Origin: Minisyncoccota bacterium
Lineage (GTDB): Bacteria > Patescibacteriota > Minisyncoccia > Minisyncoccales > RBG-13-42-11
Assembly (NCBI GenBank): GCA_016782605.1
Contig: JADHYE010000002.1
Span: forward strand, 48,067-112,066
Reading direction: 5' to 3'
Length of the DNA: 64,000 nucleotides
Below are positions 2,753-60,721 of the stretch, piece by piece; the stretch's first letter is position 1; each line of letters opens with the position of its first letter. Below the pieces are notes generated by a model. It had not been told where the DNA came from and searched no databases. It saw nothing but the letters and a program-made list of their open reading frames with translations. The position numbers and the translations under genes were made by a program.

Positions 2753-2764
2753 AGTAAACCCTCT

Positions 2765-2808
2765 GGTCGGACGATGCCTGTCCTGAGCCGCATCGAAGGG
2801 TTAGAACC
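2765..2808. repeat. R-family GC-rich module (GGACGATG[cctgYcctgagYcgcatcgaaggg]TTAGAACC)
   Basis: About 90% identical to 4750-4790 by eye. Starts right after the cysK stop. Contains hairpin cgatgc...gcatcg. Confidence 0.8.
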
Positions 2809-2812
2809 TGTT

Positions 2813-3709
2813 TTACTGATTAAATAAATTTGTGCTGAGATATTTTTCTCCCCTATCTGGAAAAATAACTACAATCTTTCCTGATTTTATTCTTTTGGCC
2901 ACCTCAATAGCTGCATACATTGCAGCACCACTACTCATGCCAACAAAAATTCCTTCTTTTTTAACAATTTGCCTTGCTGTTTCAAACGCATCTTCGGTCT
3001 TTACCATAATTGTTCTATCTATTTTTGATGGGTCATATATTGACGACGCTATCGCTTCTTTCATATTCTTTAATCCTTGAATATAATGACCCCTGACAGG
3101 ATGAGCACTAACAATCTTTATTTTGGGATTCTTTTCTTTTAAATATTTACCCACTCCCATAATCGTGCCAGAGGTTCCAATTGCTGAAACAAAATAATTA
3201 ATATCTCCTTTTGTTTGTCTCCATATTTCCTCTGCTGTTTTCTTATAATGGGTAAGTTTATTATATTCGTTTGAGAATTGGTCTGGCATAAAGTATTTGT
3301 CAGGATTTCTTTCAACCAATTCTCTTGCCTTAATTATTGCTCCATCGGTTCCAAGTTTTGGGTTAGTTAAAATTAATTTTGCTCCAAATGCTAAAATGGT
3401 TTTTCTTCTTTCGATTGAAACCGCTCTACTCATAACGATTTTAACTTTGTAATCCTTTATAGCCCCGAGCATAGCCAAACCAATCCCAGTATTGCCTGAA
3501 GTTGGTTCAATAATAGTCTTATCTTTTGTTAATACCCCTTCTCTTTCTGCTTGTTCAATCATTTCTAAAGCAATCCTATCTTTTACGCTACCCGTTGGAT
3601 TAAACCCTTCTAGTTTTGCATAAATTAAAACATAAGGACTAGGGTTAAGTTTATTAATTTTTACCAGAGGAGTATTTCCAATTGTTTTAAGAATATTTTT
3701 ATACAACAT
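2813..3709 (-). CDS. cysK: cysteine synthase (O-acetylserine sulfhydrylase) family, PLP-dependent
   Basis: 298-aa ORF with IGNTPLVKINKL, PLP-lysine motif SVKDRIA, and GNTGIGLA. Confidence 0.85.
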   Translation of the reverse strand: MLYKNILKTIGNTPLVKINKLNPSPYVLIYAKLEGFNPTGSVKDRIALEMIEQAEREGVLTKDKTIIEPTSGNTGIGLAMLGAIKDYKVKIVMSRAVSIERRKTILAFGAKLILTNPKLGTDGAIIKARELVERNPDKYFMPDQFSNEYNKLTHYKKTAEEIWRQTKGDINYFVSAIGTSGTIMGVGKYLKEKNPKIKIVSAHPVRGHYIQGLKNMKEAIASSIYDPSKIDRTIMVKTEDAFETARQIVKKEGIFVGMSSGAAMYAAIEVAKRIKSGKIVVIFPDRGEKYLSTNLFNQ

Positions 3710-3910: not shown

Positions 3911-4016
3911 CAAAAAACCGCCACCGCCGAAAGGCGGATTGGCGATTTTTATCGTGGCTTGCCCTGAGCAAGCGAAGCGAGTCGAATGGGCTCGCCCTAG
4001 CGGACGATTTTAGAAC
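3911..4016. repeat. R-family element with bidirectional terminator hairpin
   Basis: aaaaaaccgccaccgccgaaaggcggattggcgattttt (GAAA-loop hairpin, A-run/T-run flanks), then gccctgagc..gaatgggc module, then ctagcggacgattttagaac. Close copy at 4661-4790. Confidence 0.8.
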
Positions 4017-4564: not shown

Positions 4565-4660
4565 GTTTTCTCACCTCCTTTCGTATTGGATTAGAAAGAA
4601 AAACTCTATTTCCTTCTGTCTATATTATATAATATAATTTTATAATTGTCAATCTTAGCC

Positions 4661-4790
4661 AAAAACCCGCCACCGCCGAAAGGCGAATTGGCGATTTTTA
4701 TCATAGCTTGCCCTGAGCGAGCGAAGCGAGTCGAATGGGCTCCCCTGGTTGGACGATGCCTGCCCTGAGTCGCATCGAAGGGTTAGAACC
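4661..4790. repeat. R-family element, full form
   Basis: Terminator hairpin, gccctgagcgagcgaagcgagtcgaatgggc module, then ggacgatg[cctgccctgagtcgcatcgaaggg]ttagaacc. Confidence 0.8.
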
Positions 4791-4831
4791 TGTTTAATAA
4801 AATAAAGACCACTCAATAAAGAATGGTCTAT

Positions 4832-5295: not shown

Positions 5296-5904
5296 CTAAT
5301 TCTTTTTCTTCGCCAACTCAAACGTTTTCAAGTTTAATTCTAGATATTTTTCCGGAATTACTTCTTTAATCGCTTTCTGGATTGATGCTGGTTTCAAAGG
5401 AATTAATCCTTTAAACGCAGCAAAACTTATCAAATAAATTCCGGAAACAACGCTTTTCCCCAGTTTTTCCTGGCAGAGTTTATCAGCTGGAACTACCTTA
5501 ATCTTTTTACTAATTTCCTTTAACTGAAATAAAATTTCAGCTTCAGGCAAAGGTTTTTTCAAAGGAATTGGAATTATAAGCTGATTTATTAAAAAGTTTG
5601 TTTTCGGATTGGCAAAATATATTCCATTTAAAATCTCCTGCTCTTCCAAACCTAAAACCAAATCTGCTTTTCCTTGGGCAACCATTGGAGAAAAGATTTT
5701 CTTTCCGAATCTGATATGCACTTCAACAGAACCACCTCTCTGAGATAATCCGTGCAGTTCAGAAGTCCTAACATCATATCCCTCAAACGTAGCTGCTTCT
5801 GAAATTATCTGCAAAAGAGTAATCAGGCCCTGTCCGCCAGTGCCGACTATGACCATATTGAATTGCCTTGCCCCGTTAGAAATTTGATTTGTTTTCTTAT
5901 TCAT
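5296..5904 (-). CDS. iorB: indolepyruvate/2-oxoacid:ferredoxin oxidoreductase, beta (gamma-domain) subunit
   Basis: MVIVGTGGQGLITLL... matches the pyruvate/ketoisovalerate oxidoreductase catalytic domain. Start is ambiguous: ATG 5904 lies inside element A1, ATG 5856 lies after it. The track start 5937 is unlikely. Confidence 0.8.
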   Translation of the reverse strand: MNKKTNQISNGARQFNMVIVGTGGQGLITLLQIISEAATFEGYDVRTSELHGLSQRGGSVEVHIRFGKKIFSPMVAQGKADLVLGLEEQEILNGIYFANPKTNFLINQLIIPIPLKKPLPEAEILFQLKEISKKIKVVPADKLCQEKLGKSVVSGIYLISFAAFKGLIPLKPASIQKAIKEVIPEKYLELNLKTFELAKKKN

Positions 5905-5949
5905 AATAAATAATTTTATTCCCACGTTAATACGCAATTTCTAACGGGG
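5871..5949. repeat. A-family long-stem element A1
   Basis: ccccgttagaaatt (5871-5884) pairs with aatttctaacgggg (5936-5949). 51-nt AT-rich loop. Confidence 0.8.
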
Positions 5950-14808: not shown

Positions 14809-15838
14809 CCGCTTCTTCTGAACTTATGCGGTCTTTTCTTTTTTTGAAAAAATCACTGATGAATTCAAAAAAGATTCCGGCTAAAGGAATTGCCAGGATA
14901 GCGCCTAACAATCCCCAAAGCTGTCCGCCAATCAATAAAGCGATTAAAACCAAAACTGGCGGCAATCCGATGAATTTTTTGCTCAAAATCGGAGTAAGAA
15001 TATTTCCCTCTATCTGCTGGATCAGAAAGAAAACAATCAGAATGAATATGGCTTTTAACCAGTCCTCCAAGAAAACCAAAATAGCAATTACTCCTCCAGC
15101 CAATACCGGACCAATAATGGGAATAATGTTGGTGATGCCGGCAAACAAACCCAAACTGAAAGCGTAATCAATCTTAAACAGTTTTAAAGCGAGAAAAGAA
15201 GCCAATCCCACGAAAAAGCAGCATAAAACCCTTGTACCGAACCATCCTGAAATCTTCTGCTGAGATCTTTCCCAAACGCTTACTGCATAATCCTCGTTTT
15301 TCTTCGGGAAAAAAAGCCTGATCGCTCTTTCTGCCCATTTGCCTTCCAGAGAAAAGAAAAAAGCAAGGGAAAAAATGGTAAAAGCGGAAAAGATTCCACC
15401 GAAAACAGCTGAGAGAGCAGTAAAAATATTCGAAGAAGCGCCTAATAACCAATTTTCAGAAGAGGCAATGAAACTTTCAAAGCTTTCAAAAGCTCCTATA
15501 CCCAGCCATTTTAAAGGCGGAGTTATTTTTTCAAAGTATTGCGAGAAAAGTTCGGCGAACTGCCTGATTTCAGGGATAAAAGACAAAGATATCAAATATA
15601 TTGCTCCCCCAAAAAAGCCGAAAATCAAAACATAGACCAAACCGGTAGCCAGAACGCGGTGAACTCTTCTCCTTTGCAGGAAATCTATTGCCGGATTGAA
15701 CAAAACCGAAATAATCAAAGCGAAAATGATCAAAATCAAAATATCCCTGATTTCATAAAGGAGATAAATGATAAGAGCGGCCAAAGCAACCTTTAAAATG
15801 CTCCTCCAGGAAATATCCAATAGTTTTTCGCTGTTCAC
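14801..15838 (-). CDS. AI-2E family transporter (PerM-like permease)
   Basis: 345 aa, multi-TM, family-like C-terminal half. The GTG start overlaps the last nt of element A2. Confidence 0.75.
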   Translation of the reverse strand: MNSEKLLDISWRSILKVALAALIIYLLYEIRDILILIIFALIISVLFNPAIDFLQRRRVHRVLATGLVYVLIFGFFGGAIYLISLSFIPEIRQFAELFSQYFEKITPPLKWLGIGAFESFESFIASSENWLLGASSNIFTALSAVFGGIFSAFTIFSLAFFFSLEGKWAERAIRLFFPKKNEDYAVSVWERSQQKISGWFGTRVLCCFFVGLASFLALKLFKIDYAFSLGLFAGITNIIPIIGPVLAGGVIAILVFLEDWLKAIFILIVFFLIQQIEGNILTPILSKKFIGLPPVLVLIALLIGGQLWGLLGAILAIPLAGIFFEFISDFFKKRKDRISSEEAVA

Positions 15839-15970
15839 CCCGTTAGAAGTCTGTCTTTATATGGCTTTAAACCAATTTCAGACATCCTTTGTTTTTTGAT
15901 TATACCCCGTTATTGCAGAACAGAAAAAATTTTAATTTAAATTTTTTCTGACAAAGACTTCTAACGGGGT
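15837..15970. repeat. A-family long-stem element A2
   Basis: accccgttagaagtct (15837-15852) pairs with agacttctaacggggt (15955-15970). An extra half-site accccgtta lies at 15904-15912. The loop holds a TATAAT (minus strand, 15904-15899). Confidence 0.85.
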
Positions 15971-17245: not shown

Positions 17246-18610
17246 TTATTTTCCCAGCTTATTCTTAAAAAGCTCAACTAAGTCTTTTGTTTTTACTCTT
17301 TCTTGTTTCATAGTGTCGCGGTTACGGACGGTCAAGTCATCATTTTTTAAAGTTTCAAAATCTATGGTTAAACAGAAAATCGTACCAACCTCGTCTTGAC
17401 GGCGATATCTTCTGCCTATTGAACCTAATTCATCGTACTGACAAACAAAATGAGGCTTTAAAAGTTGATAAATCTCTTTGGCTTTTTTGGTTAACTCCTG
17501 CTTGTTTTTAACCAAAGGAAGAACTGCTATTTTCACCGGCGCCAAACTTTTATCCAGCTTAAGTGTCACCTCCGTTTCTTTTGTCGATTCTGTTGTTTTC
17601 GTCCTGCCGCCTTTTGTTTCGGAATAAGCGTCAATTAAAAAAGTCAAAAAGCTTCTGTCGGCGCCAGCTGAAGTTTCAATGATGTAAGGATAGTACTTTT
17701 CTTTTATTTCCTCGTCAAAGTAGCGCAAATCCTGCCTGGAATGCTTTGCGTGGTTTGATAAATCCCAATCCCCCCTGTCGTGGATACCTTCAATTTCTTT
17801 CCAACCGAAAGGAAACTTATATTCAATGTCAGCCGCTCTTTTGGCGTAATGCGCCAGATCTGATTTTTCCACTTCTCTAAAGCGCAAATTCTCTTTTTTC
17901 ACGCCAAGCTTTAAATACCAATCCATTCTTGATTTTTTCCAGTTTTCAAAGAATTTGTCAGCTGTTTTCGGATGGCAAAACCACTGCATTTCCATCTGTT
18001 CAAATTCTCGAGTTCTATAAACGAAGTTACCCGGAGTAATCTCATTCCTAAAAGCTTTGCCGATCTGAGCTATACCAAAAGGAACTTTCAGGCGCATCGA
18101 ATTTAAAACATTAAGAAAATTAAGATATATCCCCTGGCAGGTTTCCGCCCTCAGATAAGTAGCAACTGCTTCATTTTCAAGAGAACCGACGAAAGTTTTC
18201 ATCATTAAATTGAATTTCTTCGCTTCTGTCAGTTCGCCGCCGCATTCTGGACACCCCGCACCAGAACCTTCGGTTCGGTACGGGGCAGGCTTTTTATTCT
18301 GGATTTCATCTAATTTAAATCTCTTGTGGCATTTCTTGCATTCAACCAGCTCATCGGCAAATCCGGCACTCAAATGGCCTGAAGCCTGCCAAACTTGAGG
18401 AGACATTAAAATAGCTGCATCCAAGCCGACAATATTCTCCTGCTTTTTTGTCATCTCATCCCACCAAGCTTTCTTGATATTATTCTTCATTTCCGTTCCC
18501 AAAGGCCCGAAATCATAGCAAGAACCAAAACCGCCGTAAATCTCTGAAGATTGAAAGATAAAACCACGCCTCTTGGTCAATGAAATGATTTTTTCCAAAA
18601 GATTTTCCAT
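17246..18610 (-). CDS. glyQS: glycine--tRNA ligase (alpha2 type)
   Basis: RRGFIFQSSEIYGG and the class II core. Start is probably ATG 18610 (MENLLEKI), 1 nt after the upstream stop. The track start is 18640. Confidence 0.92.
   Translation of the reverse strand: MENLLEKIISLTKRRGFIFQSSEIYGGFGSCYDFGPLGTEMKNNIKKAWWDEMTKKQENIVGLDAAILMSPQVWQASGHLSAGFADELVECKKCHKRFKLDEIQNKKPAPYRTEGSGAGCPECGGELTEAKKFNLMMKTFVGSLENEAVATYLRAETCQGIYLNFLNVLNSMRLKVPFGIAQIGKAFRNEITPGNFVYRTREFEQMEMQWFCHPKTADKFFENWKKSRMDWYLKLGVKKENLRFREVEKSDLAHYAKRAADIEYKFPFGWKEIEGIHDRGDWDLSNHAKHSRQDLRYFDEEIKEKYYPYIIETSAGADRSFLTFLIDAYSETKGGRTKTTESTKETEVTLKLDKSLAPVKIAVLPLVKNKQELTKKAKEIYQLLKPHFVCQYDELGSIGRRYRRQDEVGTIFCLTIDFETLKNDDLTVRNRDTMKQERVKTKDLVELFKNKLGK
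18254..18289 (-). repeat. D-family palindromic element inserted in frame in glyQS
   Basis: Minus strand CCTGCCCCGTACCGAACC-GAA-GGTTCTGGTGCGGGG, 36 nt. Encodes PAPYRTEGSGAG between the KCHKRF and CPECGG zinc knuckles. Confidence 0.8.
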
Positions 18611-22026: not shown

Positions 22027-24900
22027 TTATATTTTTTTAATCACCAGTAATATATTCTGCCCGCCAATTGCAACTTCTTTTTCCATATCAAAACCTTCTT
22101 GTGCCTCTCCTGAAATCAAATCTTTTACCCTAGCTTCCTTTAAAATAAAATCCCTATTTTTAGCTAAAATATTACCAAGTTCGCCACTGCCAGAATAGCT
22201 TACTAAGATTTCATCTTTCGGTTTTAAGCCGGCTTTCTTTCTCATTTCCTGAATGTTTCGGATCAATTCTCTGACTGTTCCTTCTTCTTTCAGTTCCGCG
22301 CTAATCTCAGTATCTAATTCCACTTCTTTCTTTATCTTATTGTCAAAAACCACTTCTTTTACATTTACCTCCTCTTTTATTAAATCCAGTAATCCTGAAT
22401 CAAATTTTAATTTCACGTTTTTTACCTTCAAGCTCTGTAAGGGCTGTCTTGTTTTAATGCCGACCGAAGCTCTTTCTGTCAAAGTTAAAGCAACTATCTC
22501 TCTAACTTTTTGCATTTTCTCTTCAAGGTCATTCATAATATATTTTTTATTAACTCCTGGCCATTCGATTAAATGAACTGATTCTGGCATTCCGTCTTTT
22601 TTGAACTTCTGGTAGTTTTCTTCGGCAAAAAACGGCATTATCGGAGCTATTATGTTCAATAAATTAACAATAATACAGTAAAGGGTTTGAGAAGCTTCTC
22701 TTTTTTCTTCCGGATTATCCGGTTTTTGGAAGCGCTTTCTCGATCTGCGGATATACCACAAAGACAAATCATTTATGAAAAAATCTTCAATGGCCAAGGT
22801 CGCTGACATTACGTCGTAACCATCCAAATCCTTTGTCACCTTGGCTATTAAATTGTTCAAACGGGAAAGAATCCAAGTATCCAAGCAGTTCTTGCTTTCA
22901 ACAATATTTTCTTTATCAGAATATTCTTCGGCAGAAATGTAAGTAGTAAAGAATTCAATGGAATTGTATAAAGTCAAAAGTTTCCTTTTCGTCTCTTCGG
23001 CAAGCTTGTAGCCAAAATTAAGATTATAAGCCGGATTCTGCTTGGCATAAAGCCATCTCATAGGATCTGCTCCTATCTTCTCAACCGCTTCGTCAAACCA
23101 AATGGCATTACCCTTGGACTTGTGCATCTCTTCCCCTTTTTCATCGCGAACCAACGCGTATCCGAAAATCGTTTTTGTCGGATTTTTCTTTTCCAAAACC
23201 ATACTCATAACAATCAAAGAATAAAACCAGTTTTTGAATTGGCCGGGGAAAGACTCGCAAATCAAATCAGCCGGAAACCATTTTTTCCAATAATTCTTGT
23301 CAGTGGAATATCCCATGGTGGAAAAGGAAACAATTCCAGCATCCAGCCACGGATTGCCGACGTCAGGAATACGGGAAATTAATTTGCCGCATTTTGAACA
23401 TTTGATTTTAACTTTATCCACCCATGGCCGATGAGGAGAATTTCCCTCAAAATCCTGCCAGCCTTCAACTGCTCTTTTTTTCAATTCTTCTTTTGAACCA
23501 ATAACTTCAAAATGTCCGCAGGAACATTCAAAAATCGGCAAAGCTAATCCCCAATATCTTTTTTTAGAAATCAGCCAGTCCTGCATATTCTTTAACCAAT
23601 CCAACTCTCTTTCCAAACCGAAAGAAGGCAACCATTTTATCTTTTTAACTATATGCATCAATGGCTTTCTCAGTTTCTCCATGGAAATATACCATTCATC
23701 AACTAAACGGAATATCAAATCTTCCTTACAGCGCCAACAGGTCGGATACCGGTGCTTGTAATTTTCAATTCGGTAAACAACATTCTTGTTTCTTAAATCA
23801 TCAAAAATCATTTCATTAACTTCTGCTGCCAGATTTCCGGTTAAAAATCCGAATCCTTCTTTATATCTGCTTTCATCATTTAAAGGATCAATGACAGGAA
23901 GATTGAATTTCTTGCCGAGCTGAAAGTCCTCTTGTCCACAACCAGGAGCAATATGGACGATACCCGTTCCTTCTTCTTCTGAAACTTCATCCCACAGTAT
24001 GACTTTATGTTTAAAATTACCTAAAGTCTCTTTAACTGCCGGCAATTCGTCAAACATTCCCCCGTACTCCAACCCTTCCAAATCTTTTCCCGGAAACTCT
24101 CTGATTATTTCTAACTTCCCGAAAATTCCTGCTTTGTCTTTTTGCAAAATGAGAATATCGTTGTCTTCACTCTTAATTTCGGTATAAATCAATTTCGGAT
24201 TTACAGCTATTGCCACGTTCGCTGGCAACGTCCAAGGAGTAGTTGTCCAAACCAAAAGATATGTCTTTTCTTGCCCAATAACAGGCAACTTAACAAAAAC
24301 TGATCTATGGGTGATTTCCTGGTATTCTTCTGTTAAAATCTCGTGCTGGGAAATGGCTGTGCCACAACGAATGCACCAGGGAACAACGTCTCTTCCTTTG
24401 TAGAGCAGTTCGTCTTTCCAGCATTTCTTTAAAAAATTCCAAATAGCGTAGTTGTTATCATCAGACATCGTATAATATGAATTATCCCAATCCATCCACT
24501 GGCCCAATCTGATTGACTGTTCTGTTTGAACTTTAGAATACTTCCTGACCCTTTCTTTACATTTGTTGACAAAATTGGCTATGCCGTATTTTTCAATGTC
24601 TTTTTTGTTTTTAAATCCGAGCTCTTTTTCCACTTCTACTTCAACCCAAAGACCCTGGCAGTCAAAGCCGTTCTGAAACCTCTGATCAAAGCCCTGAAGA
24701 GCCTTGTATCTCTGGAAAACGTCCTTGTAAGTCCTTCCCCAGGCATGATGAACACCCATCGGATTGTTGGCGGTTATCGGACCGTCCAAAAAAGACCATC
24801 GTTTCTTATCCTGGTTTTTCTTTCTCAGTTTTTCAAAAATCCTGTTCTCCTGCCAAAATTTCAGTATTTTCTGCTCTATTTGGGGGAAATTTAATTCCAT
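22027..24900 (-). CDS. ileS: isoleucine--tRNA ligase
   Basis: 957 aa with a class I core and KMHKSKGN (KMSKS variant). Confidence 0.95.
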   Translation of the reverse strand: MELNFPQIEQKILKFWQENRIFEKLRKKNQDKKRWSFLDGPITANNPMGVHHAWGRTYKDVFQRYKALQGFDQRFQNGFDCQGLWVEVEVEKELGFKNKKDIEKYGIANFVNKCKERVRKYSKVQTEQSIRLGQWMDWDNSYYTMSDDNNYAIWNFLKKCWKDELLYKGRDVVPWCIRCGTAISQHEILTEEYQEITHRSVFVKLPVIGQEKTYLLVWTTTPWTLPANVAIAVNPKLIYTEIKSEDNDILILQKDKAGIFGKLEIIREFPGKDLEGLEYGGMFDELPAVKETLGNFKHKVILWDEVSEEEGTGIVHIAPGCGQEDFQLGKKFNLPVIDPLNDESRYKEGFGFLTGNLAAEVNEMIFDDLRNKNVVYRIENYKHRYPTCWRCKEDLIFRLVDEWYISMEKLRKPLMHIVKKIKWLPSFGLERELDWLKNMQDWLISKKRYWGLALPIFECSCGHFEVIGSKEELKKRAVEGWQDFEGNSPHRPWVDKVKIKCSKCGKLISRIPDVGNPWLDAGIVSFSTMGYSTDKNYWKKWFPADLICESFPGQFKNWFYSLIVMSMVLEKKNPTKTIFGYALVRDEKGEEMHKSKGNAIWFDEAVEKIGADPMRWLYAKQNPAYNLNFGYKLAEETKRKLLTLYNSIEFFTTYISAEEYSDKENIVESKNCLDTWILSRLNNLIAKVTKDLDGYDVMSATLAIEDFFINDLSLWYIRRSRKRFQKPDNPEEKREASQTLYCIIVNLLNIIAPIMPFFAEENYQKFKKDGMPESVHLIEWPGVNKKYIMNDLEEKMQKVREIVALTLTERASVGIKTRQPLQSLKVKNVKLKFDSGLLDLIKEEVNVKEVVFDNKIKKEVELDTEISAELKEEGTVRELIRNIQEMRKKAGLKPKDEILVSYSGSGELGNILAKNRDFILKEARVKDLISGEAQEGFDMEKEVAIGGQNILLVIKKI

Positions 24901-25033
24901 ACCCTGTATATCAACATCCAGGCATTTTCAATGCGAAAACATCCTGAAGATTGTTTTTATTTAATAATATATTCAACATAATAACTTTAATTAAACTTTT
25001 AATGCGAAGCATTCTGGATGTTGTATTACGGGG
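24901..25033. repeat. C-family long-stem element C1
   Basis: accctgtatatcaacatccag (24901-24921) pairs with ctggatgttgtattacgggg (25014-25033), with a 3x3 internal loop. Small hairpins gcatt-ttc-aatgc and aatgc-gaa-gcatt sit just inside each arm. The element fills the whole gap between the upstream stop and the ileS ATG. Confidence 0.8.
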
Positions 25034-25037
25034 CATA

Positions 25038-25613
25038 TTAATTAACCTTTCTTAATTCACCCACTTTGATAAAGTTTTTTTTGTAGAAAACCTCTTTTAA
25101 AAGCTTCTGATTGCTTATCTTCTTGATTATGCCCTCAAACAGCCACAAAGGATCGCCGTGACCGACAATTAAAATTTTCTTGTTTTTGTATTTTCTATCA
25201 ATATCATTTAAAAAACTGAGCATTCTCTTTTTAAGGTCAGCCCAGCTCTCTCCCTCAGGGGGCCTTTTAGAAAACTTTCTTTTCTTGTAATTGAAAAACT
25301 TGTAATATTCTTCTTTAAGTCTGCCGTGAAAAACGCCAAGATTTACGTCTCTAAGCCTTTTGTCAAAATTTATTTTCTTAATATTTAATTCTCTTGAAGC
25401 GATTTTTGCGGTTTCTTTTGTCCTGTAAAAATCAGAAGAATAAATGAAATCTATTTTTTCTTTTTTAATTCTTTTCAAACTTCTTTTTACCTGATCTTTC
25501 CCTTTTTGTGTCATTTTAATCGAGAAATTGTCCCTCAAAGGATAAATAAATCTCTTTTTTTTAACCTGATAAACGTTTTCTCCGTGCCGTATAATAAAAT
25601 AATGGTTATTCAT
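25038..25613 (-). CDS. histidine phosphatase (phosphoglycerate mutase-like) family protein
   Basis: YFIIRHGE catalytic RHG motif and ILIVGHGD. ATG 25613 is preferred over track start 25646, which overlaps argS. Confidence 0.75.
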   Translation of the reverse strand: MNNHYFIIRHGENVYQVKKKRFIYPLRDNFSIKMTQKGKDQVKRSLKRIKKEKIDFIYSSDFYRTKETAKIASRELNIKKINFDKRLRDVNLGVFHGRLKEEYYKFFNYKKRKFSKRPPEGESWADLKKRMLSFLNDIDRKYKNKKILIVGHGDPLWLFEGIIKKISNQKLLKEVFYKKNFIKVGELRKVN

Positions 25614-25617
25614 ATAA

Positions 25618-27171
25618 TTACATCTTTTCCGGAGCAGAAATGCCAATTAAAGACAAAACACTCTTTAAGATTATTTTAGTTGCCAAAGATAATCCCAAAC
25701 GAGCTTCAGACAAATGAACGTCTTCTGAAATGACCCGGCAATCATGGTAAAACTGATGGAAGGAAGCAGCTAAATCCAAAGCATATTGAGGAATCCTTTG
25801 AACCTGATAATCTTTTGCCGTATCTTCAATGATTTCCGGAAACTTAATTAATTGTTTGATAAGCCCTAATTCAGACGGATGATTCAAAAGTTTCAAGTTC
25901 TTAATCGCTGGCTTTAATTTATGATTCTCATTTTTCAGTTTCCTTAAAATACTGCAAATTCTGGCATGAGCATACTGTACATAATAAACAGGGTTTTTAT
26001 CTGACTGGTCTTTGGCCAATGCTACGTCAAATTCCATCTGGGTATCGGGCGACTTCATTAAATATATGAATCTGACTGCGTCTGCGCCGGCTTCGTTAAT
26101 CAGCCATTCCAAGGTTATCACTTTCCCCTTTCTTTTGGACATCTTTTCTCCTTTTAACCTGACAACCTGGGTTATCAGAAAAACCAGCTCCCCTTTGTAA
26201 TCAAGTATCCTACTTACTGCTTTTATCTTGTTAACGTGCCCTTGATGGTCAGCGCCCCAGATATTGATTATTTTGTCGTATTTCCTATCAAACCTGTCTT
26301 TGTGATAGGCAATATCAGGTAAAAGGTAAGTAAAGTCTCCTGTTTCCCTGACAATAACCCAGTCTTTTGAATCGCCAAAAGCTGAAGTTCTTAGCCATTG
26401 GGCGTTGTCTCTCTCGTAGACCAAGCGCTGTTTTTTAAGCCAATCATATATCTTAGTTATCTTTCCTTTTTGATATAAATCTTTTTCTTCAGAAACCCAG
26501 AAATCAAACCTAATCTTCAGTTTCTTCTCAATAAAATCTTTAATGTCTTTTTGGACTGCCTGAGCCAAAAAAGAACCCGCATCCCTTTCATTCTTGCACT
26601 TGCTGATTTCTGGCTTTAATTTATTTATCTTTTTCTCAAGGTATTCATTCAAATAAGTTGTCCCTTCTCCCAAAGCTGTTTTGCCCAATTCCTTAATCTG
26701 GGAGCTGCTTTTGGCATCATTAGCATAGTGAGAGCGAAAAACCTTAAACCCGCTCTTTTTAAAAACATTGGCCAATGTTTCACCTAAAAAAGCGCCTCTA
26801 CCATGACCGATATGCAATTCTCCTGTGGGATTGGCGCAAATATATTCAATGTCTATTTTTTTATTTTTGCCGATTTCTAAGTTTCCGAATTTATCTTCCT
26901 TTTTTAAAATTTCTTCGGCTTTGTTTTGTAAATACTCTTTTGAAAGAAAAAAATTGATAAAGCCGTTTTTCACTTCAATTCTATCTAAAATGTCGGATTT
27001 TATATTGTCAGCTATCTCCTGAGGATCCTTTTTTAGCACCATTGCCACGTTGCTCGTATAATCGCCAAAAGCAGGCTCTGTTGGCCTGTCTATTTTAACT
27101 TCAACTTCCTGTTTGTACAGCTTTTTTATCGCTTTTTCAAGCAAATTTTTGACCTCATTTCTGGCTGTCAT
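25618..27171 (-). CDS. argS: arginine--tRNA ligase
   Basis: 517 aa with ANPTGELHIGHGR and a C-terminal DALR-type anticodon-binding region. Confidence 0.93.
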   Translation of the reverse strand: MTARNEVKNLLEKAIKKLYKQEVEVKIDRPTEPAFGDYTSNVAMVLKKDPQEIADNIKSDILDRIEVKNGFINFFLSKEYLQNKAEEILKKEDKFGNLEIGKNKKIDIEYICANPTGELHIGHGRGAFLGETLANVFKKSGFKVFRSHYANDAKSSSQIKELGKTALGEGTTYLNEYLEKKINKLKPEISKCKNERDAGSFLAQAVQKDIKDFIEKKLKIRFDFWVSEEKDLYQKGKITKIYDWLKKQRLVYERDNAQWLRTSAFGDSKDWVIVRETGDFTYLLPDIAYHKDRFDRKYDKIINIWGADHQGHVNKIKAVSRILDYKGELVFLITQVVRLKGEKMSKRKGKVITLEWLINEAGADAVRFIYLMKSPDTQMEFDVALAKDQSDKNPVYYVQYAHARICSILRKLKNENHKLKPAIKNLKLLNHPSELGLIKQLIKFPEIIEDTAKDYQVQRIPQYALDLAASFHQFYHDCRVISEDVHLSEARLGLSLATKIILKSVLSLIGISAPEKM

Positions 27172-27221: not shown

Positions 27222-27286
27222 ACCCCGTTAGATATTAATAAAATAATGAATCAATCTTAGGTGTTTACAACTTTATCTAACGGGGT
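27222..27286. repeat. A-family long-stem element A3
   Basis: accccgttagata (27222-27234) pairs with tatctaacggggt (27274-27286). Confidence 0.8.
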
Positions 27287-39938: not shown

Positions 39939-40505
39939 CTATTTAGCTTTGTATTTTGGATTTGATTTTTTCTCTCTTTTTATCAAGGCAATGACTTCTT
40001 CAACCAGTTTCTTAGGATCTTCATCATAAACAATCTTTGCCACTTTTCGGTGGGGACCGGTAATAATTGACCTTATCTTATCAGCTGTTCCGCCTGTTCC
40101 CTCTAAAATGCCTATCGGCTTTTGGATTTCAAAAGCAGTGGTAAATTCGTGCAACGTGCCCATTCTGCCGCAGATGATGATTACTGCATCTGCTGACTTT
40201 GTCATAAGAGTGTCTCTGCCCACGTAATCTGCTCCGGTGTAGATCATAACGTCAAAAGGCTCTAAAGGCAGCTTGTAGGTTTTCAAATGGGCGGCTTCTG
40301 AAGTGGCCGGCGAAAAGCCAACGTTAAACCCGCCAGCTTTCTTGCAACCCAAAGCAGCAAAGTAAGGAACACCGGTAGTGGCTCCGGTAACAAGTACGCA
40401 CTTTTTTTTGGCGATTTCCCGGCCAACCTCTTCAGACACTTTTCTAATATTTCTGCAGCAATGGCTGGTTCTGGCCGCGCCCGAAACAACGATTTTGTAA
40501 TTCAT
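39939..40505 (-). CDS. LOG/TIGR00725-family Rossmann protein
   Basis: 188 aa with VVSGAAR..VLVTGATTGVPYFAALG and GGTADKI. Confidence 0.7.
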   Translation of the reverse strand: MNYKIVVSGAARTSHCCRNIRKVSEEVGREIAKKKCVLVTGATTGVPYFAALGCKKAGGFNVGFSPATSEAAHLKTYKLPLEPFDVMIYTGADYVGRDTLMTKSADAVIIICGRMGTLHEFTTAFEIQKPIGILEGTGGTADKIRSIITGPHRKVAKIVYDEDPKKLVEEVIALIKREKKSNPKYKAK

Positions 40506-40581
40506 ACCCGGTTAGTAGAAATTCGACTAAACTTTGTTTATTATCACTGCTCCGGCAGTGATCGAATTTTCACTACCGGGC
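40506..40581 (-). repeat. B-family structured element B2 (abuts the ATG of the LOG-family gene)
   Basis: Its reverse complement aligns with B1: gcccggtagtgaaaattcgat / cactgccggagcagtg / A-rich linker / gtcgaatttctactaaccgggt, then ATG 40505. Confidence 0.8.
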
Positions 40582-40645: not shown

Positions 40646-40726
40646 ACCCCGTTAGAGAATTAGATGTCAAATAATTTATCATTGGTTATTTTAAACTAAA
40701 ACCCGCCAGAGGTTCTCTAACGGGGT
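40646..40726. repeat. A-family long-stem element A5
   Basis: accccgttagagaa (40646-40659) pairs with ttctctaacggggt (40713-40726). Confidence 0.8.
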
Positions 40727-41520: not shown

Positions 41521-41583
41521 AAAAAACCGCCCTCTGTGCGAAGCGGCGGATATCGACTCGTTCTAGCGGATAATTTTAGAACC
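41521..41583. repeat. R-family element (terminator hairpin plus ctagcggataattttagaacc)
   Basis: Begins 3 nt after the methyltransferase stop (minus sense). ccgcc...ggcgg hairpin with A/T-run flanks. Confidence 0.65.
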
Positions 41584-42339: not shown

Positions 42340-42519
42340 TGCCCCCAGCAGGAATTTCACCCCGCACCTTTTTAATGTGTCCCCACTCCGATTCGAACGG
42401 AGATTATAACCTCCGGAGGATTATGCTTTATCCATTAAGCTATGGGGACATAAAGGTGCGGGGCAGGCCTGCATTTTAAGTTCCGGAAACTCATGTTCTA
42501 TCCATTAAACTATAGGGGC
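42340..42519 (-). tRNA. interrupted tRNA-Arg(CCG)-like gene (5' 52 nt + 108-nt insert + 3' 20 nt), possibly a pseudogene
   Basis: 42519-42468: GCCCCTA-TA-GTTT-AATGGATA-GAAC-A-TGAGT-TTCCGGA-ACTTA-AAAT-GCAGG. 42359-42340: TGAAATT-CCTGC-TGGGGGC-A. Acceptor pairs 7/7 and T-stem 5/5, but the T-loop is non-canonical. Confidence 0.65.
42378..42449 (-). tRNA. tRNA-Arg (anticodon CCG), canonical 72 nt, nested inside another tRNA gene
   Basis: GTCCCCA-TA-GCTT-AATGGATA-AAGC-A-TAATC-CTCCGGA-GGTTA-TAAT-CTCCG-TTCGAAT-CGGAG-TGGGGAC-A. All stems pair. CCA is not encoded. Confidence 0.9.
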
Positions 42520-46400: not shown

Positions 46401-46470
46401 ACCCCGTTTAGAAATTTTAACTGAATGGGGTTATACTGAAATACTATGCGCCAAAAATTTCTAACGGGGT
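46401..46470. repeat. A-family long-stem element A6
   Basis: accccgtttagaaatttt pairs with aaaatttctaacggggt (1-nt bulge). The loop holds TATACT and the uvrB ATG. Confidence 0.8.
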
Positions 46471-59177: not shown

Positions 59178-60128
59178 CTACCACAATTTAAGGTTTTCTT
59201 TAATTTTTTCCTGCGGCTTATCAAAATCGGGCAGCCTCCCGACTAGGGTGTAAAATTCAAGTTCTTTTAATATGTCAGCTGCTTTTGCTTTATCGTAATT
59301 TATCCAAGAGCATTTTTCCAAATTGAAATCTATAGGAACGTTTTTTTCAATTTGAGCCAAATCTCTGGAAAGAAAAGCCTGCTCCCTGTATTTGAGAAGC
59401 GTTTCTCTCTGCTTCGGTTTAAGGTTTTTGGCTTTTCCAGAATTTTCCTCAAGTTCTTTATACAAATTATCCAGAGTGCTGAACTTCAAAAGAAGCTCAA
59501 TGGCTGTTTTTTCTCCGATTCCGGTAACTCCCGGGATATTGTCGGAAGCATCTCCCCTCAACGCCTTAAAATCCAATACTTGCTCGGGTAAAAGACCTTG
59601 TAATTTTTCTTTAACCAGGCTTTCGTCATACAGAACAACGTCTTTCACTCCCTTTCTTAAAGCGAAGAGCTTTGTCTGTTTATCAACCAACTGCAAAGCG
59701 TCCAAGTCGCCACTGACAATAATTGTTTCAATCGGCGGAACTATTTGCTTTCTCGGCGATAAAGCAGCAATGGTTCCGATAATATCGTCTGCTTCAAACC
59801 CCTGCTTTTCAAAAATGGGTACATTGAATAATTTTAAAACTTCTTTTATCCTCGGAATCTGCTGGTACAGTTCCTCCGGAGCTTTCGGCCTTTTTGCCTT
59901 GTATAGCTTGTATTTTTTATGCCTGAAGGTCGGTGAAGGCAAATCAAAGCAGGCGGCCATGTAATCAGGATGGAAATCCTTTATCGCTTTGAAAAAAACC
60001 AGCAGAAATCCGTAAACAGCGTTTGTTGTCTCGCCTTTTTCCGTTGTTAAAATGGGCAAAGCGTGAAAAGCCCGGTGGATTATGGAATTGGCGTCAATGA
60101 TTAAAATTCTTTTATGTTCTTTTTCCAT
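59178..60128 (-). CDS. 5'-3' exonuclease (Pol I N-terminal/FEN-like), stand-alone
   Basis: ILIIDANSIIHRAFHAL, H3TH region DNIPGVTGIGEKTA. ATG 60128 is preferred. The track TTG start 60155 reads through element C2. Confidence 0.88.
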   Translation of the reverse strand: MEKEHKRILIIDANSIIHRAFHALPILTTEKGETTNAVYGFLLVFFKAIKDFHPDYMAACFDLPSPTFRHKKYKLYKAKRPKAPEELYQQIPRIKEVLKLFNVPIFEKQGFEADDIIGTIAALSPRKQIVPPIETIIVSGDLDALQLVDKQTKLFALRKGVKDVVLYDESLVKEKLQGLLPEQVLDFKALRGDASDNIPGVTGIGEKTAIELLLKFSTLDNLYKELEENSGKAKNLKPKQRETLLKYREQAFLSRDLAQIEKNVPIDFNLEKCSWINYDKAKAADILKELEFYTLVGRLPDFDKPQEKIKENLKLW

Positions 60129-60129
60129 T

Positions 60130-60276
60130 CCCCGTATATCAACTTCCAGAACCAAACGCCTTTAGGTGCGTTTTAGCCTGTAAGCGGTTATTTAATAATA
60201 ATTTCATATTTACAACCATTTGAGTTATGCCCGGCGTTTGTTTAGAACGCACCTTACTGGAAGTTGTATTACGGGG
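60130..60276. repeat. C-family long-stem element C2
   Basis: ccccgtatatcaacttccag pairs with ctggaagttgtattacgggg. It shows the same 3x3 internal loop as C1 and a compensatory AT to TT/AA change. It overlaps the last 8 nt of tsaE and ends 1 nt before the exonuclease ATG. Confidence 0.8.
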
Positions 60277-60721
60277 CATTTTTTAATTCTATCACGATTT
60301 TTCTCGTATTTTTATTTACGAATTCGAACCTCAGCAGAATGGCGTTCTTCGGTATTATCTTTTTGACTCTGTCTGACCATTCAACAGCGATAATGTTCCG
60401 GGGATCGGAAACAAACTCCTTGAATCCTAAACCAAGCAATTCTCCAGCTTTTTTAATCCTATAACAATCAATATGGATAAACGACCTTCGGGAAGTGGAA
60501 AACTTTTTAATCAGGACGAAAGTAGGACTGAGAACTCTTTCCTTTATCTCAAGGCCTTTGGCAAGGCCCTGCAAAAAAGTGGTTTTTCCTCCGCCCAAAT
60601 CTCCCACCAATCCTAAAACAGTTGCTTTTCCATAGGCTTTTGATTTTAAAATTCTCTTTGCCAAACTTTGTCCAAGCTTTTTTGTCTGAGCCGGACTTTT
60701 TGTAATGAATATGGATTCCAT
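60269..60721 (-). CDS. tsaE: tRNA t6A37 biosynthesis ATPase TsaE
   Basis: LVGDLGGGKTTFLQG P-loop. Confidence 0.88.
   Translation of the reverse strand: MESIFITKSPAQTKKLGQSLAKRILKSKAYGKATVLGLVGDLGGGKTTFLQGLAKGLEIKERVLSPTFVLIKKFSTSRRSFIHIDCYRIKKAGELLGLGFKEFVSDPRNIIAVEWSDRVKKIIPKNAILLRFEFVNKNTRKIVIELKNAP

What the first reader, a model, noticed from the sequence alone, without database searches (positions are those of the whole stretch)
24901..25033. C-family elements exactly fill stop-to-start gaps before ileS and the 5'-3' exonuclease
C1 (24901-25033) and C2 (60130-60276) have 20-bp terminal stems, CCCYGTATATCAACWTCCAG / CTGGAWGTTGTATTACGGGG. Both carry an identical 3x3 internal loop (TAT opposite TAT). 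One base pair is compensated between copies (AT/AT versus TT/AA). Small hairpins sit just inside both arms and the centre is AT-rich. C1 starts 0 nt from the ileS ATG and ends 4 nt from the upstream stop. C2 starts 1 nt from the exonuclease ATG and overlaps the last 8 nt of tsaE, encoding NAP*. Like A and B, the gene-proximal arm ends ...GGGT/GGGGA next to ATG. Three sequence-unrelated families share one design: a long closing stem ending CNGGG(T) at the start codon.
Basis: seen in the sequence. Interest (0 to 1): 0.62.

Follow-up and report, generated by a model that had tools for sequence, protein, structure and literature searches.

The report
Relics of a start-codon-hopping nuclease element
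The two hairpin elements are real, but they are gutted copies of a tiny (about 310 bp) mobile gene cassette encoding a GIY-YIG nuclease. The cassette is widespread in Patescibacteria, inserts exactly at host start codons while duplicating TATG, and I could not find this kind of element described anywhere.

Summary
C1 (24902-25033) and C2 (60130-60276) have 20-nt complementary ends, an invariant 3x3 internal loop and one compensated pair, and each abuts a start codon.

They are not host regulatory RNAs. They are non-autonomous, internally deleted copies of a ~310-bp cassette: (T)ATG | CCCNGTAATACAACTTCCAG - GIY-YIG ORF of 100 aa - CTGGAAGTTGATATACNGGG | (T)ATG-host gene. The arms lie inside the first 7 and last 5 codons of that ORF.

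Close relatives have syntenic empty sites at both loci (HisPhos-ileS and tsaE-exonuclease). These equal the window sequence minus the element and one copy of TATG or AATG, so the 4-bp target duplication is proven.

Copies occur in many Patescibacteria MAGs before unrelated housekeeping genes. One 363-nt composite is 362/363 identical at two loci of one genome.

The arms covary strongly (15 of 20 pairs). The ORF is under purifying selection (dN/dS about 0.08).

Two things are inferred, not shown. The nuclease probably mobilises the element through its stem. Host genes are probably kept expressed by a translational relay through the element.

I found no published description.

The parts
24902..25033 (-). 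C1: 132-nt non-autonomous (MITE-like) derivative of the C-type GIY-YIG cassette. Its cassette orientation is that of the host genes (minus strand).
   Evidence: Arms and fold. Its 5' 24 nt, including codon 9 ATG, match cassettes L017/L025, and its 3' arm matches full-length cassettes. It is absent from the syntenic loci L048/L049.
25014..25033 (-). C1 proximal arm (coding strand CCCCGTAATACAACATCCAG). In full-length cassettes this encodes PRNTTS(S/R).
24902..24921 (-). C1 distal arm (coding strand CTGGATGTTGATATACAGGG). It contains the cassette's TGA stop, which straddles the 3x3 internal loop.
25034..25037 (-). Upstream copy of the C1 target-site duplication (TATG on the coding strand). Its ATG opens the 41-codon ORF that runs through the element.
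24898..24901 (-). Downstream copy of the C1 target-site duplication (TATG). Its ATG is the ileS start codon.
24911..25036 (-). Relic ORF through C1: 41 codons, MPRNTTSRMLRIKSLIKVIMLNILLNKNNLQDVFALKMPGC*. It ends at the cassette's canonical TGA, 10 nt before the ileS ATG.
   Evidence: 0 stops in this frame against 4 and 4 in the other two; P(open | shuffle) = 0.04
60130..60276 (-). C2: 147-nt non-autonomous derivative of the C-type GIY-YIG cassette, a member of a 147-150-nt MITE lineage.
   Evidence: Its 5' 22 nt are 100% and its 3' 34 nt 97% identical to the ends of full-length cassettes. The same lineage sits at 4 unrelated loci. It is absent from the syntenic loci L043, L045 and L046.
60257..60276 (-). 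C2 proximal arm. The tsaE reading frame now ends inside it (NAP*).
60130..60149 (-). C2 distal arm, carrying the TGA stop.
60277..60280 (-). Upstream copy of the C2 target-site duplication (AATG on the coding strand).
60126..60129 (-). Downstream copy of the C2 target-site duplication (AATG). Its ATG is the start codon of the 5'-3' exonuclease.
60139..60279 (-). Relic ORF through C2: 46 codons, MPRNTTSSKV...KAFGSGS*. It ends at the canonical TGA, 10 nt before the exonuclease ATG.
   Evidence: It was called as a 46-aa gene in L002.
22027..24900 (-). ileS, the host gene downstream of C1.
   Evidence: Pfam tRNA-synt_1 and Anticodon_1
25038..25646 (-). Histidine-phosphatase-family gene upstream of C1.
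   Evidence: Pfam His_Phos_1. The same neighbour is present in the empty-site loci.
59178..60128 (-). 5'-3' exonuclease, the host gene downstream of C2.
   Evidence: Pfam 5_3_exonuc_N and 5_3_exonuc
60269..60721 (-). tsaE, upstream of C2. The insertion changed its C-terminus from ...KNGK* (relatives) to ...KNAP*.

Best explanation
C1 and C2 are MITE-like, internally deleted copies of a very small mobile cassette of Patescibacteria.

The intact cassette is 306-315 bp. It consists only of a 100-102-aa GIY-YIG nuclease gene of the UPF0213/YhbQ type. The first 7 codons and the last ~5 codons plus the TGA stop of that gene form a 20-nt imperfect inverted repeat.

Shown:
- The cassette and its deletion derivatives insert with a 4-bp target duplication, overwhelmingly TATG.
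- One duplicated ATG stays with the host gene. The other sits directly in front of the proximal arm, in frame with the nuclease ORF.
- The insertions are orientation-specific.
- They are absent from syntenic sites of close relatives.
- They are recently mobile in at least one genome.
- Arm complementarity is maintained by compensatory changes while arm sequence diverges between lineages.

Inferred:
1. The GIY-YIG protein is the mobility enzyme. It acts on the stem formed by the arms (a DNA hairpin or cruciform) and on (T)ATG targets. It does so either as a new kind of cut-and-join element or by making a break that host repair fills from a donor copy using the 4-nt flank as microhomology.
2. 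The element borrows the host gene's ribosome-binding site and ATG to express its own ORF.
3. The host gene is translated by termination-reinitiation, because the ORF stops 8-33 nt before the host ATG. This would explain why C1 and C2 still carry an open 41/46-codon frame ending at the canonical TGA.

For: **Full-length cassettes share the arms.** L012, L013, L021, L025, L026 and L036 have the same arms, and the GIY-YIG ORF spans the whole element. Pfam PF01541 scores 2.5e-18. The nearest solved structures are the UPF0213 proteins 1zg2 and 1ywl.

**C1 and C2 retain cassette sequence beyond the arms**.

**Empty sites.** L043, L045 and L046 (tsaE-exonuclease) and L048/L049 (HisPhos-ileS) equal the window minus the element minus one AATG or TATG.

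**Copy distribution.** The 20-mer is found in 22 stretches of 11 Patescibacteria MAGs, giving 26 distinct elements in these loci and the window. The flanks are TATG/TATG in most of them. A metagenome scan added 28 further cassettes with exact TATG/TATG flanks.

**Target preference.** T precedes the ATG in 42 of 46 insertion sites, against 24 of 41 unoccupied starts (p = 4e-4).

**Orientation.** All 12 ATG-flanked MITE copies have the same orientation (p = 2e-4).

**Recent mobility.** A 363-nt composite is 362/363 identical at two loci of one genome, with unrelated flanks. The same contig carries an intact cassette.

**Arm covariation.** 89.7% of cells are paired against 72.7% when shuffled and 24-47% when slid. 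15 of 20 pairs change on both sides.

**Selection on the ORF.** The ORF core has dN/dS about 0.08 with saturated dS, while the arms stay nearly invariant.

**Family size.** 730 close homologues, nearly all starting MP(S/R)NTTS and ending FG.GS.

**Translation geometry.** The flank ATG is in frame with the ORF in 31 of 40 cassettes across arm families. The stop lies 8-33 nt before the host ATG, or overlaps it by 4 nt (ATGA).

**Relic ORFs.** The relic ORF is open in 4 of 6 copies of the 132-150-nt lineage, with 0 stops against 2-5 in the other frames. The orthologous pair C2/L010 differs by a compensated +1/-1 frameshift.
Against: - No experiment or excision product shows that the GIY-YIG protein moves the element. 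GIY-YIG enzymes hydrolyse DNA and are not known to carry out strand transfer.
- No full-length cassette lies in this 64-kb window.
- Identical cassette proteins (P0005, P0070) each sit at a single locus across many samples. Most full-length copies are therefore old and fixed rather than visibly jumping.
- Short 68-77-nt copies have other flanks (TAAA, CTTG, CAAAG), so the TATG preference is not absolute.
- The relic ORF is closed in L016, L019 and in the 136/137-nt and 222/223-nt classes. Translational relay through the whole element therefore cannot be obligatory.
- Wobble mismatches show no strand bias (13 G.T against 16 A.C). RNA pairing and DNA pairing cannot be told apart.
- The arms in the covariation set were located by searching for inverted repeats, which inflates the percentage paired.
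Confidence: 0.8

Rival explanations
1. Host cis-regulatory or processing RNA. The closing stem at the start codon evolved to control translation or to be cut by RNase III in read-through transcripts of ileS and the exonuclease gene.
For: There is a stable stem on the mRNA strand (z = -4.4) and covariation in the arms. The stem ends 1 nt from the ATG, so it must affect ribosome access.
Against: - The elements are absent from the same junctions in close relatives with 82-84% identical host proteins.
- The same element sits before unrelated genes: rplR-like, Fpg-like, murG, radA-like and DUF72.
- It has target duplications and a nuclease-coding parent.
- There is no Rfam match.
- C1's mRNA-strand stem has a C.A mismatch where the opposite strand has G.U.
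Confidence: 0.07
2. C1 and C2 are small protein genes encoding functional 41-aa and 46-aa peptides.
For: The frame is open from ATG to TGA in both, against 4-5 stops in the other frames. The length difference is 15 nt, or 5 codons. A gene caller called the C2 ORF.
Against: Apart from the arm-encoded ends, peptide sequence is not conserved, even between orthologous copies. C2 and L010 differ by a compensated frameshift. L016 and L019 of the same lineage have early stops. The ends of the ORF are simply the ends of the GIY-YIG ORF.
Confidence: 0.03
3. The arms are ends recognised by an unidentified transposase encoded elsewhere. The GIY-YIG gene is only cargo, or a homing or addiction module riding inside.
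For: GIY-YIG nucleases are not known to catalyse strand transfer. Precise ends and a fixed 4-bp duplication are typical of DDE-type transposition. No mobility experiment exists.
Against: In every arm family seen (C, B, A and at least 6 others) the only ORF between the arms is a GIY-YIG gene. The arms overlap or directly abut that ORF's ends, and they diverge together with it. No cassette with other cargo was seen among the 80 metagenome loci, but those loci were selected by GIY-YIG similarity, so this absence is weak. The genomes are small. The genome with recent MITE mobility has an intact cassette on the same contig.
Confidence: 0.15
4. C1 and C2 never moved as short elements. Each is the in-place decay product of a full-length cassette that once sat at that start codon.
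For: Both keep the cassette's frame and ends. Full-length copies are found at single fixed loci. A frameshifted full-length copy exists (L017).
Against: The 147-150-nt lineage has the same internal sequence at four unrelated loci in different genomes. A composite of two short elements is 362/363 identical at two loci of one genome. Short forms are therefore mobilised as such. C1 is a diverged member of the same lineage.
Confidence: 0.1

Closest known systems
Bacterial MITEs that sit in or between genes: Correia/CREE of Neisseria, ERIC, RUP, Rickettsia palindromic elements (comparison from my own knowledge)
   Same: They are short (about 70-220 nt), non-coding and multi-copy, with terminal inverted repeats that fold into a long stem in transcripts. 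They are flanked by a target duplication and tolerated at gene boundaries. For Correia and ERIC, known effects on mRNA include RNase III cleavage.
   Different: There is no sequence similarity. The duplication is 4 bp, (T)ATG, at start codons, not TA. The parent element is not an IS with a DDE transposase but a 310-bp GIY-YIG nuclease ORF whose own ends are the repeats. Insertion is orientation-specific relative to the host gene.
Free-standing GIY-YIG homing endonuclease genes: phage T4 seg genes, and the mitochondrial GIY-YIG ORF fused in frame to atp6 in Allomyces (from my own knowledge)
   Same: Each is a selfish gene made of little more than a GIY-YIG nuclease. It is lodged between conserved genes, present or absent among close relatives, and expressed with the help of host signals.
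   Different: Homing genes occupy one cognate site and move by homologous repair. They have no terminal inverted repeats, no short target duplication and no miniature derivatives. Here dozens of unrelated sites are occupied.
Hairpin-ended elements: IS200/IS605 and REP/RAYT, and integron attC sites (from my own knowledge)
   Same: Structure rather than sequence of the ends appears to be what is conserved. An invariant unpaired patch in the stem could mark strand or orientation.
   Different: Those systems use HUH (Y1) or tyrosine recombinases. IS200/IS605 make no target duplication. The hairpins there are sub-terminal and do not enclose the whole gene.
UPF0213 / YhbQ (COG2827) small GIY-YIG proteins, related to the SLX1 structure-specific nuclease
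   Same: The cassette protein is most similar to BH0048 (1zg2, E = 1.4e-7) and EF2693 (1ywl). It has the same size and a single GIY-YIG domain.
   Different: To my knowledge those proteins are treated as ordinary chromosomal genes of unknown or DNA-repair function, with no repeats or target duplications described. The cassette proteins carry arm-encoded N- and C-terminal tails: MP(S/R)NTTS... and ...FG.GS.

Membership tests
MITE (miniature inverted-repeat transposable element) | Short element without a mobility gene | tested here: met
   The elements are 132 and 147 nt. There is no GIY-YIG hit anywhere in the six-frame translation of the window.
MITE (miniature inverted-repeat transposable element) | Terminal inverted repeats | tested here: met
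   20-nt arms
MITE (miniature inverted-repeat transposable element) | Target-site duplication verified against an empty site | tested here: met
   TATG for C1 and AATG for C2. The syntenic empty sites are L048/L049 and L043/L045/L046.
MITE (miniature inverted-repeat transposable element) | Many copies at unrelated loci, with signs of recent movement | tested here: met
   A copy pair 362/363 identical with unrelated flanks.
MITE (miniature inverted-repeat transposable element) | Shares its ends with a longer coding element that could mobilise it | tested here: met
   The ends are shared with 306-315-bp cassettes. Whether the cassette protein mobilises it was not tested.
Insertion sequence (ISfinder families) | Encodes a transposase of a recognised class (DDE, DEDD, HUH, serine or tyrosine) | tested here: not met
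   The only ORF is a GIY-YIG domain (Pfam PF01541). NCBIfam gives only a weak match to the group I intron endonuclease model.
Insertion sequence (ISfinder families) | Terminal inverted repeats plus a fixed-length target duplication | tested here: met
Free-standing homing endonuclease gene | Encodes a homing-type nuclease (GIY-YIG, HNH, LAGLIDADG) | tested here: met
   Met for the parent cassette only. C1 and C2 have lost the nuclease gene.
Free-standing homing endonuclease gene | Confined to one cognate site, which it cleaves when empty | tested here: not met
   Copies lie before many unrelated genes. Cleavage specificity cannot be tested with these tools.
Structured cis-regulatory RNA of a described family (Rfam) | Match to a curated covariance model | tested here: not met
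   There is no match at gathering score in the window and none at E <= 1 on the C1 region.
Structured cis-regulatory RNA of a described family (Rfam) | Conserved at the orthologous position of the regulated gene | tested here: not met
   Absent upstream of ileS and the exonuclease gene in relatives with 82-84% identical proteins.
IS200/IS605 or REP/RAYT hairpin elements | HUH (Y1) transposase and insertion without target duplication | tested here: not met
   The protein is GIY-YIG and a 4-bp duplication is present.
Correia (CREE) elements | Characteristic 26-bp repeat sequence and TA duplication (recalled from knowledge) | tested here: not met
   The arms are CCCNGTAATACAACTTCCAG and the duplication is (T/A)ATG.
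RNase III-processed intergenic stems | Cleavage of the stem in vivo | not testable with these tools
   This needs 5'-end-resolved RNA-seq or an in vitro RNase III assay.

The most novel reading that the evidence does not exclude
The ~310-bp cassettes are autonomous transposable elements of a class not yet recognised in prokaryotes. Their only protein, a 100-aa SLX1/UPF0213-like GIY-YIG nuclease, recognises the structure formed by the element's own ends and drives precise, orientation-specific insertion at (T)ATG start codons. This would be the smallest self-mobilising DNA element known. It lives by taking over the host gene's translation start and handing ribosomes on to the host gene.
Probability: 0.4. 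Interest if true: 0.92.

Novelty: new variant of a known kind. Interest (0 to 1): 0.8.

Why it matters
**For mobile-DNA biology.** If the nuclease is the mobility enzyme, this adds a transposase class (GIY-YIG) and a new lower size limit for autonomous mobile DNA. It would also be a clean example of an element adapted to genomes with almost no intergenic space. It lands exactly on start codons, duplicates the ATG, expresses itself from the host's ribosome-binding site, and ends its ORF a few bases before the host ATG.

**For annotation.** In Patescibacteria genomes it explains hundreds of 'excinuclease ABC subunit C' and 'GIY-YIG nuclease family' mis-annotations. It explains spurious N-terminal extensions and GTG/TTG starts of host genes, short contigs that break at repeats, and the recurrent CCCNG...CNGGG hairpins at gene boundaries.

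**For testing.** It gives a system with defined ends, a 100-aa protein and a 4-bp target.

Tried and rejected
- **Rfam.** The whole window at gathering score found only tmRNA and a tRNA. The C1 region at E <= 1 found nothing.
- **Promoter and terminator scans** of both elements found nothing above the shuffle expectation. The elements are not evident promoters or intrinsic terminators.
- **Viral contigs.** The arm 20-mer is absent, so there is no sign of phage carriage.
- **Peptide-gene reading.** Rejected because the frame, not the sequence, is kept.
- **Ile-rich leader peptide for ileS.** Considered because the C1 ORF has 4 Ile. Rejected because the same element type precedes unrelated genes.
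- **Strand of the functional stem.** Wobble counts are 13 G.T against 16 A.C, which is uninformative.
- **Looking for different insertion sites through identical cassette proteins** (P0005, P0070). Each sits at one locus in many samples. This says these copies are fixed. It says nothing about mobility.
- **Shine-Dalgarno motif in the distal arm.** By eye, only GGGG 1 nt from the ATG, which is too close.
- **Literature.** Eight full-text searches combined GIY-YIG with Patescibacteria, Parcubacteria, CPR, inverted repeats, MITE, target-site duplication and transposase or transposon, plus one search on COG2827/UPF0213/YhbQ. One paper was checked. None describes such an element. Subscription-only literature was not searchable.

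Full report
**1. The observation.**
The window encodes its genes mainly on the minus strand. The arms are CCCYGTATATCAACWTCCAG and CTGGAWGTTGTATTACGGGG. TAT faces TAT as a 3x3 internal loop. The W position is compensated: A-T in C1, T-A in C2. Both strands fold with this terminal stem, z = -4.4 to -5.8, and none of 200 shuffles folds as well. The 20-mer is not expected by chance.

The flanking genes are ileS (22027-24900), a histidine-phosphatase-family gene (25038-25646), a 5'-3' exonuclease (59178-60128) and tsaE (60269-60721).

One detail changes the picture. Both elements are flanked by the same four bases on each side. On the + strand these are CATA|C1|CATA and CATT|C2|CATT. On the coding strand they read TATG and AATG. 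The true C1 therefore starts at 24902.

**2. What the arms belong to.**
The right-arm 20-mer occurs in 22 stretches of 11 Patescibacteria MAGs in the species-representative genome collection. These MAGs are labelled Saccharibacteria, Kerfeldbacteria, Parcubacteria and 'Patescibacteria group'.

In eight of these stretches the partner arm is not 70-220 nt away but about 300 nt away. Between the arms lies an ORF of 100-102 aa:

(T)ATG | CCCCGTAATACAACTTCCAG ... CTGGAAG(T/A)TGATATACGGGG | (T)ATG-host gene

The ORF reads MPRNTTSS-MF(F/W)Y.YVLES...YIGYTNNLKRR..EH...DAKRRE.YLK...AFG(S/T)GS*. It is a GIY-YIG nuclease (PF01541, 2.5e-18). It is most similar to the UPF0213 proteins BH0048 and EF2693 among solved structures.

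The arms are inside the gene. The proximal arm encodes PRNTTS(S/R). The distal arm encodes G(S/T)GS and contains the TGA stop, which straddles the stem and the internal loop.

C1 keeps 24 nt of the cassette's 5' end, including codon 9 (ATG). C2 keeps 22 nt at the 5' end and 34 nt at the 3' end at 97-100% identity. The window itself has no intact GIY-YIG gene. C1 and C2 are therefore internally deleted, non-autonomous derivatives.

**3. They are insertions.**
Homologues of the exonuclease (84%, 81% and 77% identical) lie in the same T2SSE-tsaE-exonuclease context, but tsaE overlaps the exonuclease start and there is no element. The window sequence minus C2 and one AATG reproduces those junctions base for base. 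The insertion changed the tsaE C-terminus from ...KNGK* to ...KNAP*.

An IleS 82% identical lies directly after the same phosphatase gene with a 1-nt gap. Removing C1 and one TATG from the window reproduces that junction.

A closer relative (CAWBPO010000001.1, locus L010) has the orthologous C2 insertion.

**4. They are, or recently were, mobile.**
A fuzzy search for both arms in the fetched loci gave 26 distinct elements. They fall in size classes of 68-80, 132-150, 222-223 and 306-315 nt.

The flanks are TATG/TATG in most of them. The others are AATG (the C2/L010 locus), ATGA, TAAA (4 copies), CTTG and CAAAG.

The 147-150-nt lineage to which C2 belongs, with C1 as a diverged member carrying a 15-nt deletion, has the same internal sequence in front of four unrelated genes.

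Elements also occur in tandem, sharing a TATG. One such composite (137 + TATG + 222 nt) is 362/363 identical at two loci of genome UBA4787 whose flanks are unrelated. The same contig carries an intact cassette.

All 12 ATG-flanked short copies have the same orientation relative to the host gene (p = 2e-4). T precedes the duplicated ATG in 42 of 46 sites, against 24 of 41 unoccupied start codons in the window (p = 4e-4). This argues for an intrinsic TATG preference on top of selection for harmless sites.

**5.
I searched JGI metagenomes with an alignment of the nuclease core, with the arm-encoded ends removed. This gave 571 relatives, of which 80 were fetched.

In most of them, arms of roughly 20 nt enclose the ORF, start with CCC(N)G and end with C(N)GGG. 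28 have exact TATG/TATG flanks, followed by a long host ORF.

Arm sequences differ between lineages:
- C-type: CCCNGTAATACAAC...
- B-type: CCCGGTAGTGAAAATTCGAC... (loci L085, L092, L093, L096 and others). These arms also flank an intact GIY-YIG ORF in L022.
- A-type: CCCCGTTAGAAAT/GATA... (loci L097, L103).
- At least six further types.

The window's A copies, B copies (27301-27373 and 40507-40580, with TATA/TATG and TATG/TATG flanks) and C copies are thus all relics of sister cassettes.

**6. Constraints.**
On 32 distinct arm pairs, 89.7% of cells are paired, against 72.7% after shuffling and 24-47% when the partner is slid. 15 of 20 pairs change on both sides. The covariation score is 0.40 against 0.11, reached by 0 of 500 shuffles. 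One caveat applies: the arms were located by their complementarity, which inflates the percentage paired.

Within the C type, positions 4 and 15-20 covary. The A.A/T.T/A.A loop at positions 8-10 never changes.

The nuclease core has dN/dS about 0.08 with saturated synonymous sites, yet the arms are almost invariant. The arms are therefore constrained as nucleic acid, and the protein is functional.

Wobble mismatches show no strand bias, so RNA and DNA pairing cannot be distinguished.

The protein family is large. It has 730 close homologues, nearly all starting MP(S/R)NTTS and ending FG.GS. In a library clustered at 50% identity it has 1151 representatives at E <= 1e-10. Sources annotate these proteins as 'GIY-YIG nuclease family protein' or 'excinuclease ABC subunit C'.

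**7. How host genes survive (inference).**
The duplicated upstream ATG keeps the host's upstream context and is in frame with the nuclease ORF in 31 of 40 cassettes of several arm families (p = 1e-8 against one-third, though lineages are not independent). The ORF stops 8-33 nt before the host ATG, or overlaps it as ATGA. In the C type the distance is always 9-10 nt.

This is the geometry of translational coupling. The element is probably translated from the host's initiation signals, and the terminating ribosome restarts on the host gene.

In line with this, C1, C2, L010 and L008 keep a 41-47-codon frame open to the canonical TGA. They have 0 stops there against 2-5 in the other frames, and P(open | shuffle) is 0.04-0.07 for each. 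The orthologues C2 and L010 differ by a compensated +1/-1 frameshift.

Against a strict requirement: L016, L019 and the 136/137-nt and 222/223-nt classes have early stops. A weaker version may suffice, in which any translation across the proximal arm melts the stem that would otherwise occlude the host start.

**8. How it moves (inference).**
The only gene is a small GIY-YIG nuclease related to a structure-specific nuclease family. Structure, not sequence, of the ends is conserved, together with a terminal CCCNGT motif. Non-autonomous copies with the same ends are mobilised.

The simplest reading is that the nuclease acts on the stem, as a DNA hairpin or cruciform, and on (T)ATG targets.

GIY-YIG enzymes are not known to join DNA. 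Either host ligation or repair completes a cut-and-paste, or a nuclease-made break at TATG is repaired by copying a donor element with the 4-nt flank as microhomology. The second option would also explain why the flank is so uniform within lineages: TATG for most classes, TAAA for the 68-71-nt class, and TTCA for the window's A-type copies.

An unidentified transposase acting in trans cannot be excluded.

**9. Comparison with what is known.**
C1 and C2 meet the operational definition of a MITE. Their parent fits neither an IS (no recognised transposase class) nor a homing endonuclease gene (many unrelated sites, inverted repeats, target duplication, miniature derivatives).

They are unrelated in sequence and in target to Correia, ERIC, RUP and RPE elements. 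They differ from IS200/IS605, REP-RAYT and attC systems in enzyme and in having a duplication.

Eight full-text searches and one paper check found no description. Literature outside the held library could not be searched.

**10. Verdict.**
The regulatory or RNase III interpretation is not the primary explanation. The elements are relics of an apparently undescribed family of start-codon-inserting GIY-YIG cassettes. That family is the interesting result.

Noticed in passing
window 5871-5949, 15838-15969, 27223-27285, 32997-33125, 40647-40725, 46402-46469: There are six A-type relics (CCCCGTTAGA...TCTAACGGGG), with duplications TTCA (15838 and 32997), TAAA (27223) and TTTA (40647). The copies at 15838 and 32997 sit in ATGA stop/start overlaps. 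There the downstream host gene now starts with a GTG made from the arm's last G plus the TG of the duplication. The copy at 32997 also offers an in-frame ATG inside the arm.
   Followed up: partly
window 27301-27373 and 40507-40580: Two B-type relics (CCCGGTAGTGAAAATTCGAC...GTCGAATTTCTACTACCGGG) lie directly before the genes at 27375-27824 and 39939-40505. Their flanks are TATA/TATG and TATG/TATG. The same arms enclose an intact GIY-YIG ORF in L022 5206-5499.
   Followed up: partly
window 42360-42463; also 18253-18298 and 31722-31767: The tRNA-Arg(CCG) gene (42377-42449) is enclosed by an inverted repeat, CCCCGCACCTTT...AAAGGTGCGGGG. Related hairpins (ACCCCGCACCAGAACCTTCGGTTCGGTACGGGGC) occur twice elsewhere, inside ORF-covered sequence.
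   Followed up: no
window 42403-42447 and 42473-42517: A 45-nt partial duplicate (76% identical) of the tRNA-Arg region lies just beside the gene. An independent assembly of the same species (ENA NODE_196) ends near here.
   Followed up: no
window 2760-2824, 3911-4016, 4660-4806, 41538-41582: Another repeat family (..GCCTGYCCTGAGYCGCATCGAAGGGTTAGAAC and CAAAAAMCCGCCACCGCCGAAAGGCG..) lies in long intergenic regions. It is unrelated to the GIY-YIG arms.
   Followed up: no
L050 2411-2500: In a relative (IleS 72% identical) the phosphatase-ileS gap holds a diverged 27-nt duplicate of the ileS 5' end (MELNFPKI*) followed by a small hairpin, CCCCGAAGTATAAACCTTCGGTTTAACTACGGGG. The ileS start looks like a repeatedly hit site.
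   Followed up: no
L007 820-1182 and L022 6038-6400 (both DHGX01000003.1): A composite of two C-type short elements joined by TATG is 362/363 identical at two loci with unrelated flanks. Composites can apparently be mobilised as a unit through their outer arms.
   Followed up: yes
L014 3677-3756: An 80-nt C-type copy has a length that puts the upstream ATG in frame with the host gene. This predicts a 28-residue N-terminal extension (MPRNTTSSAFFQRETQNRRRRLEDDIRG-M...) rather than a separate small ORF.
   Followed up: no
window 27817-28174: A tmRNA gene (Rfam 133 bits) lies right after the smpB-like gene that carries the B-type relic at its start. ARAGORN did not report it.
   Followed up: no
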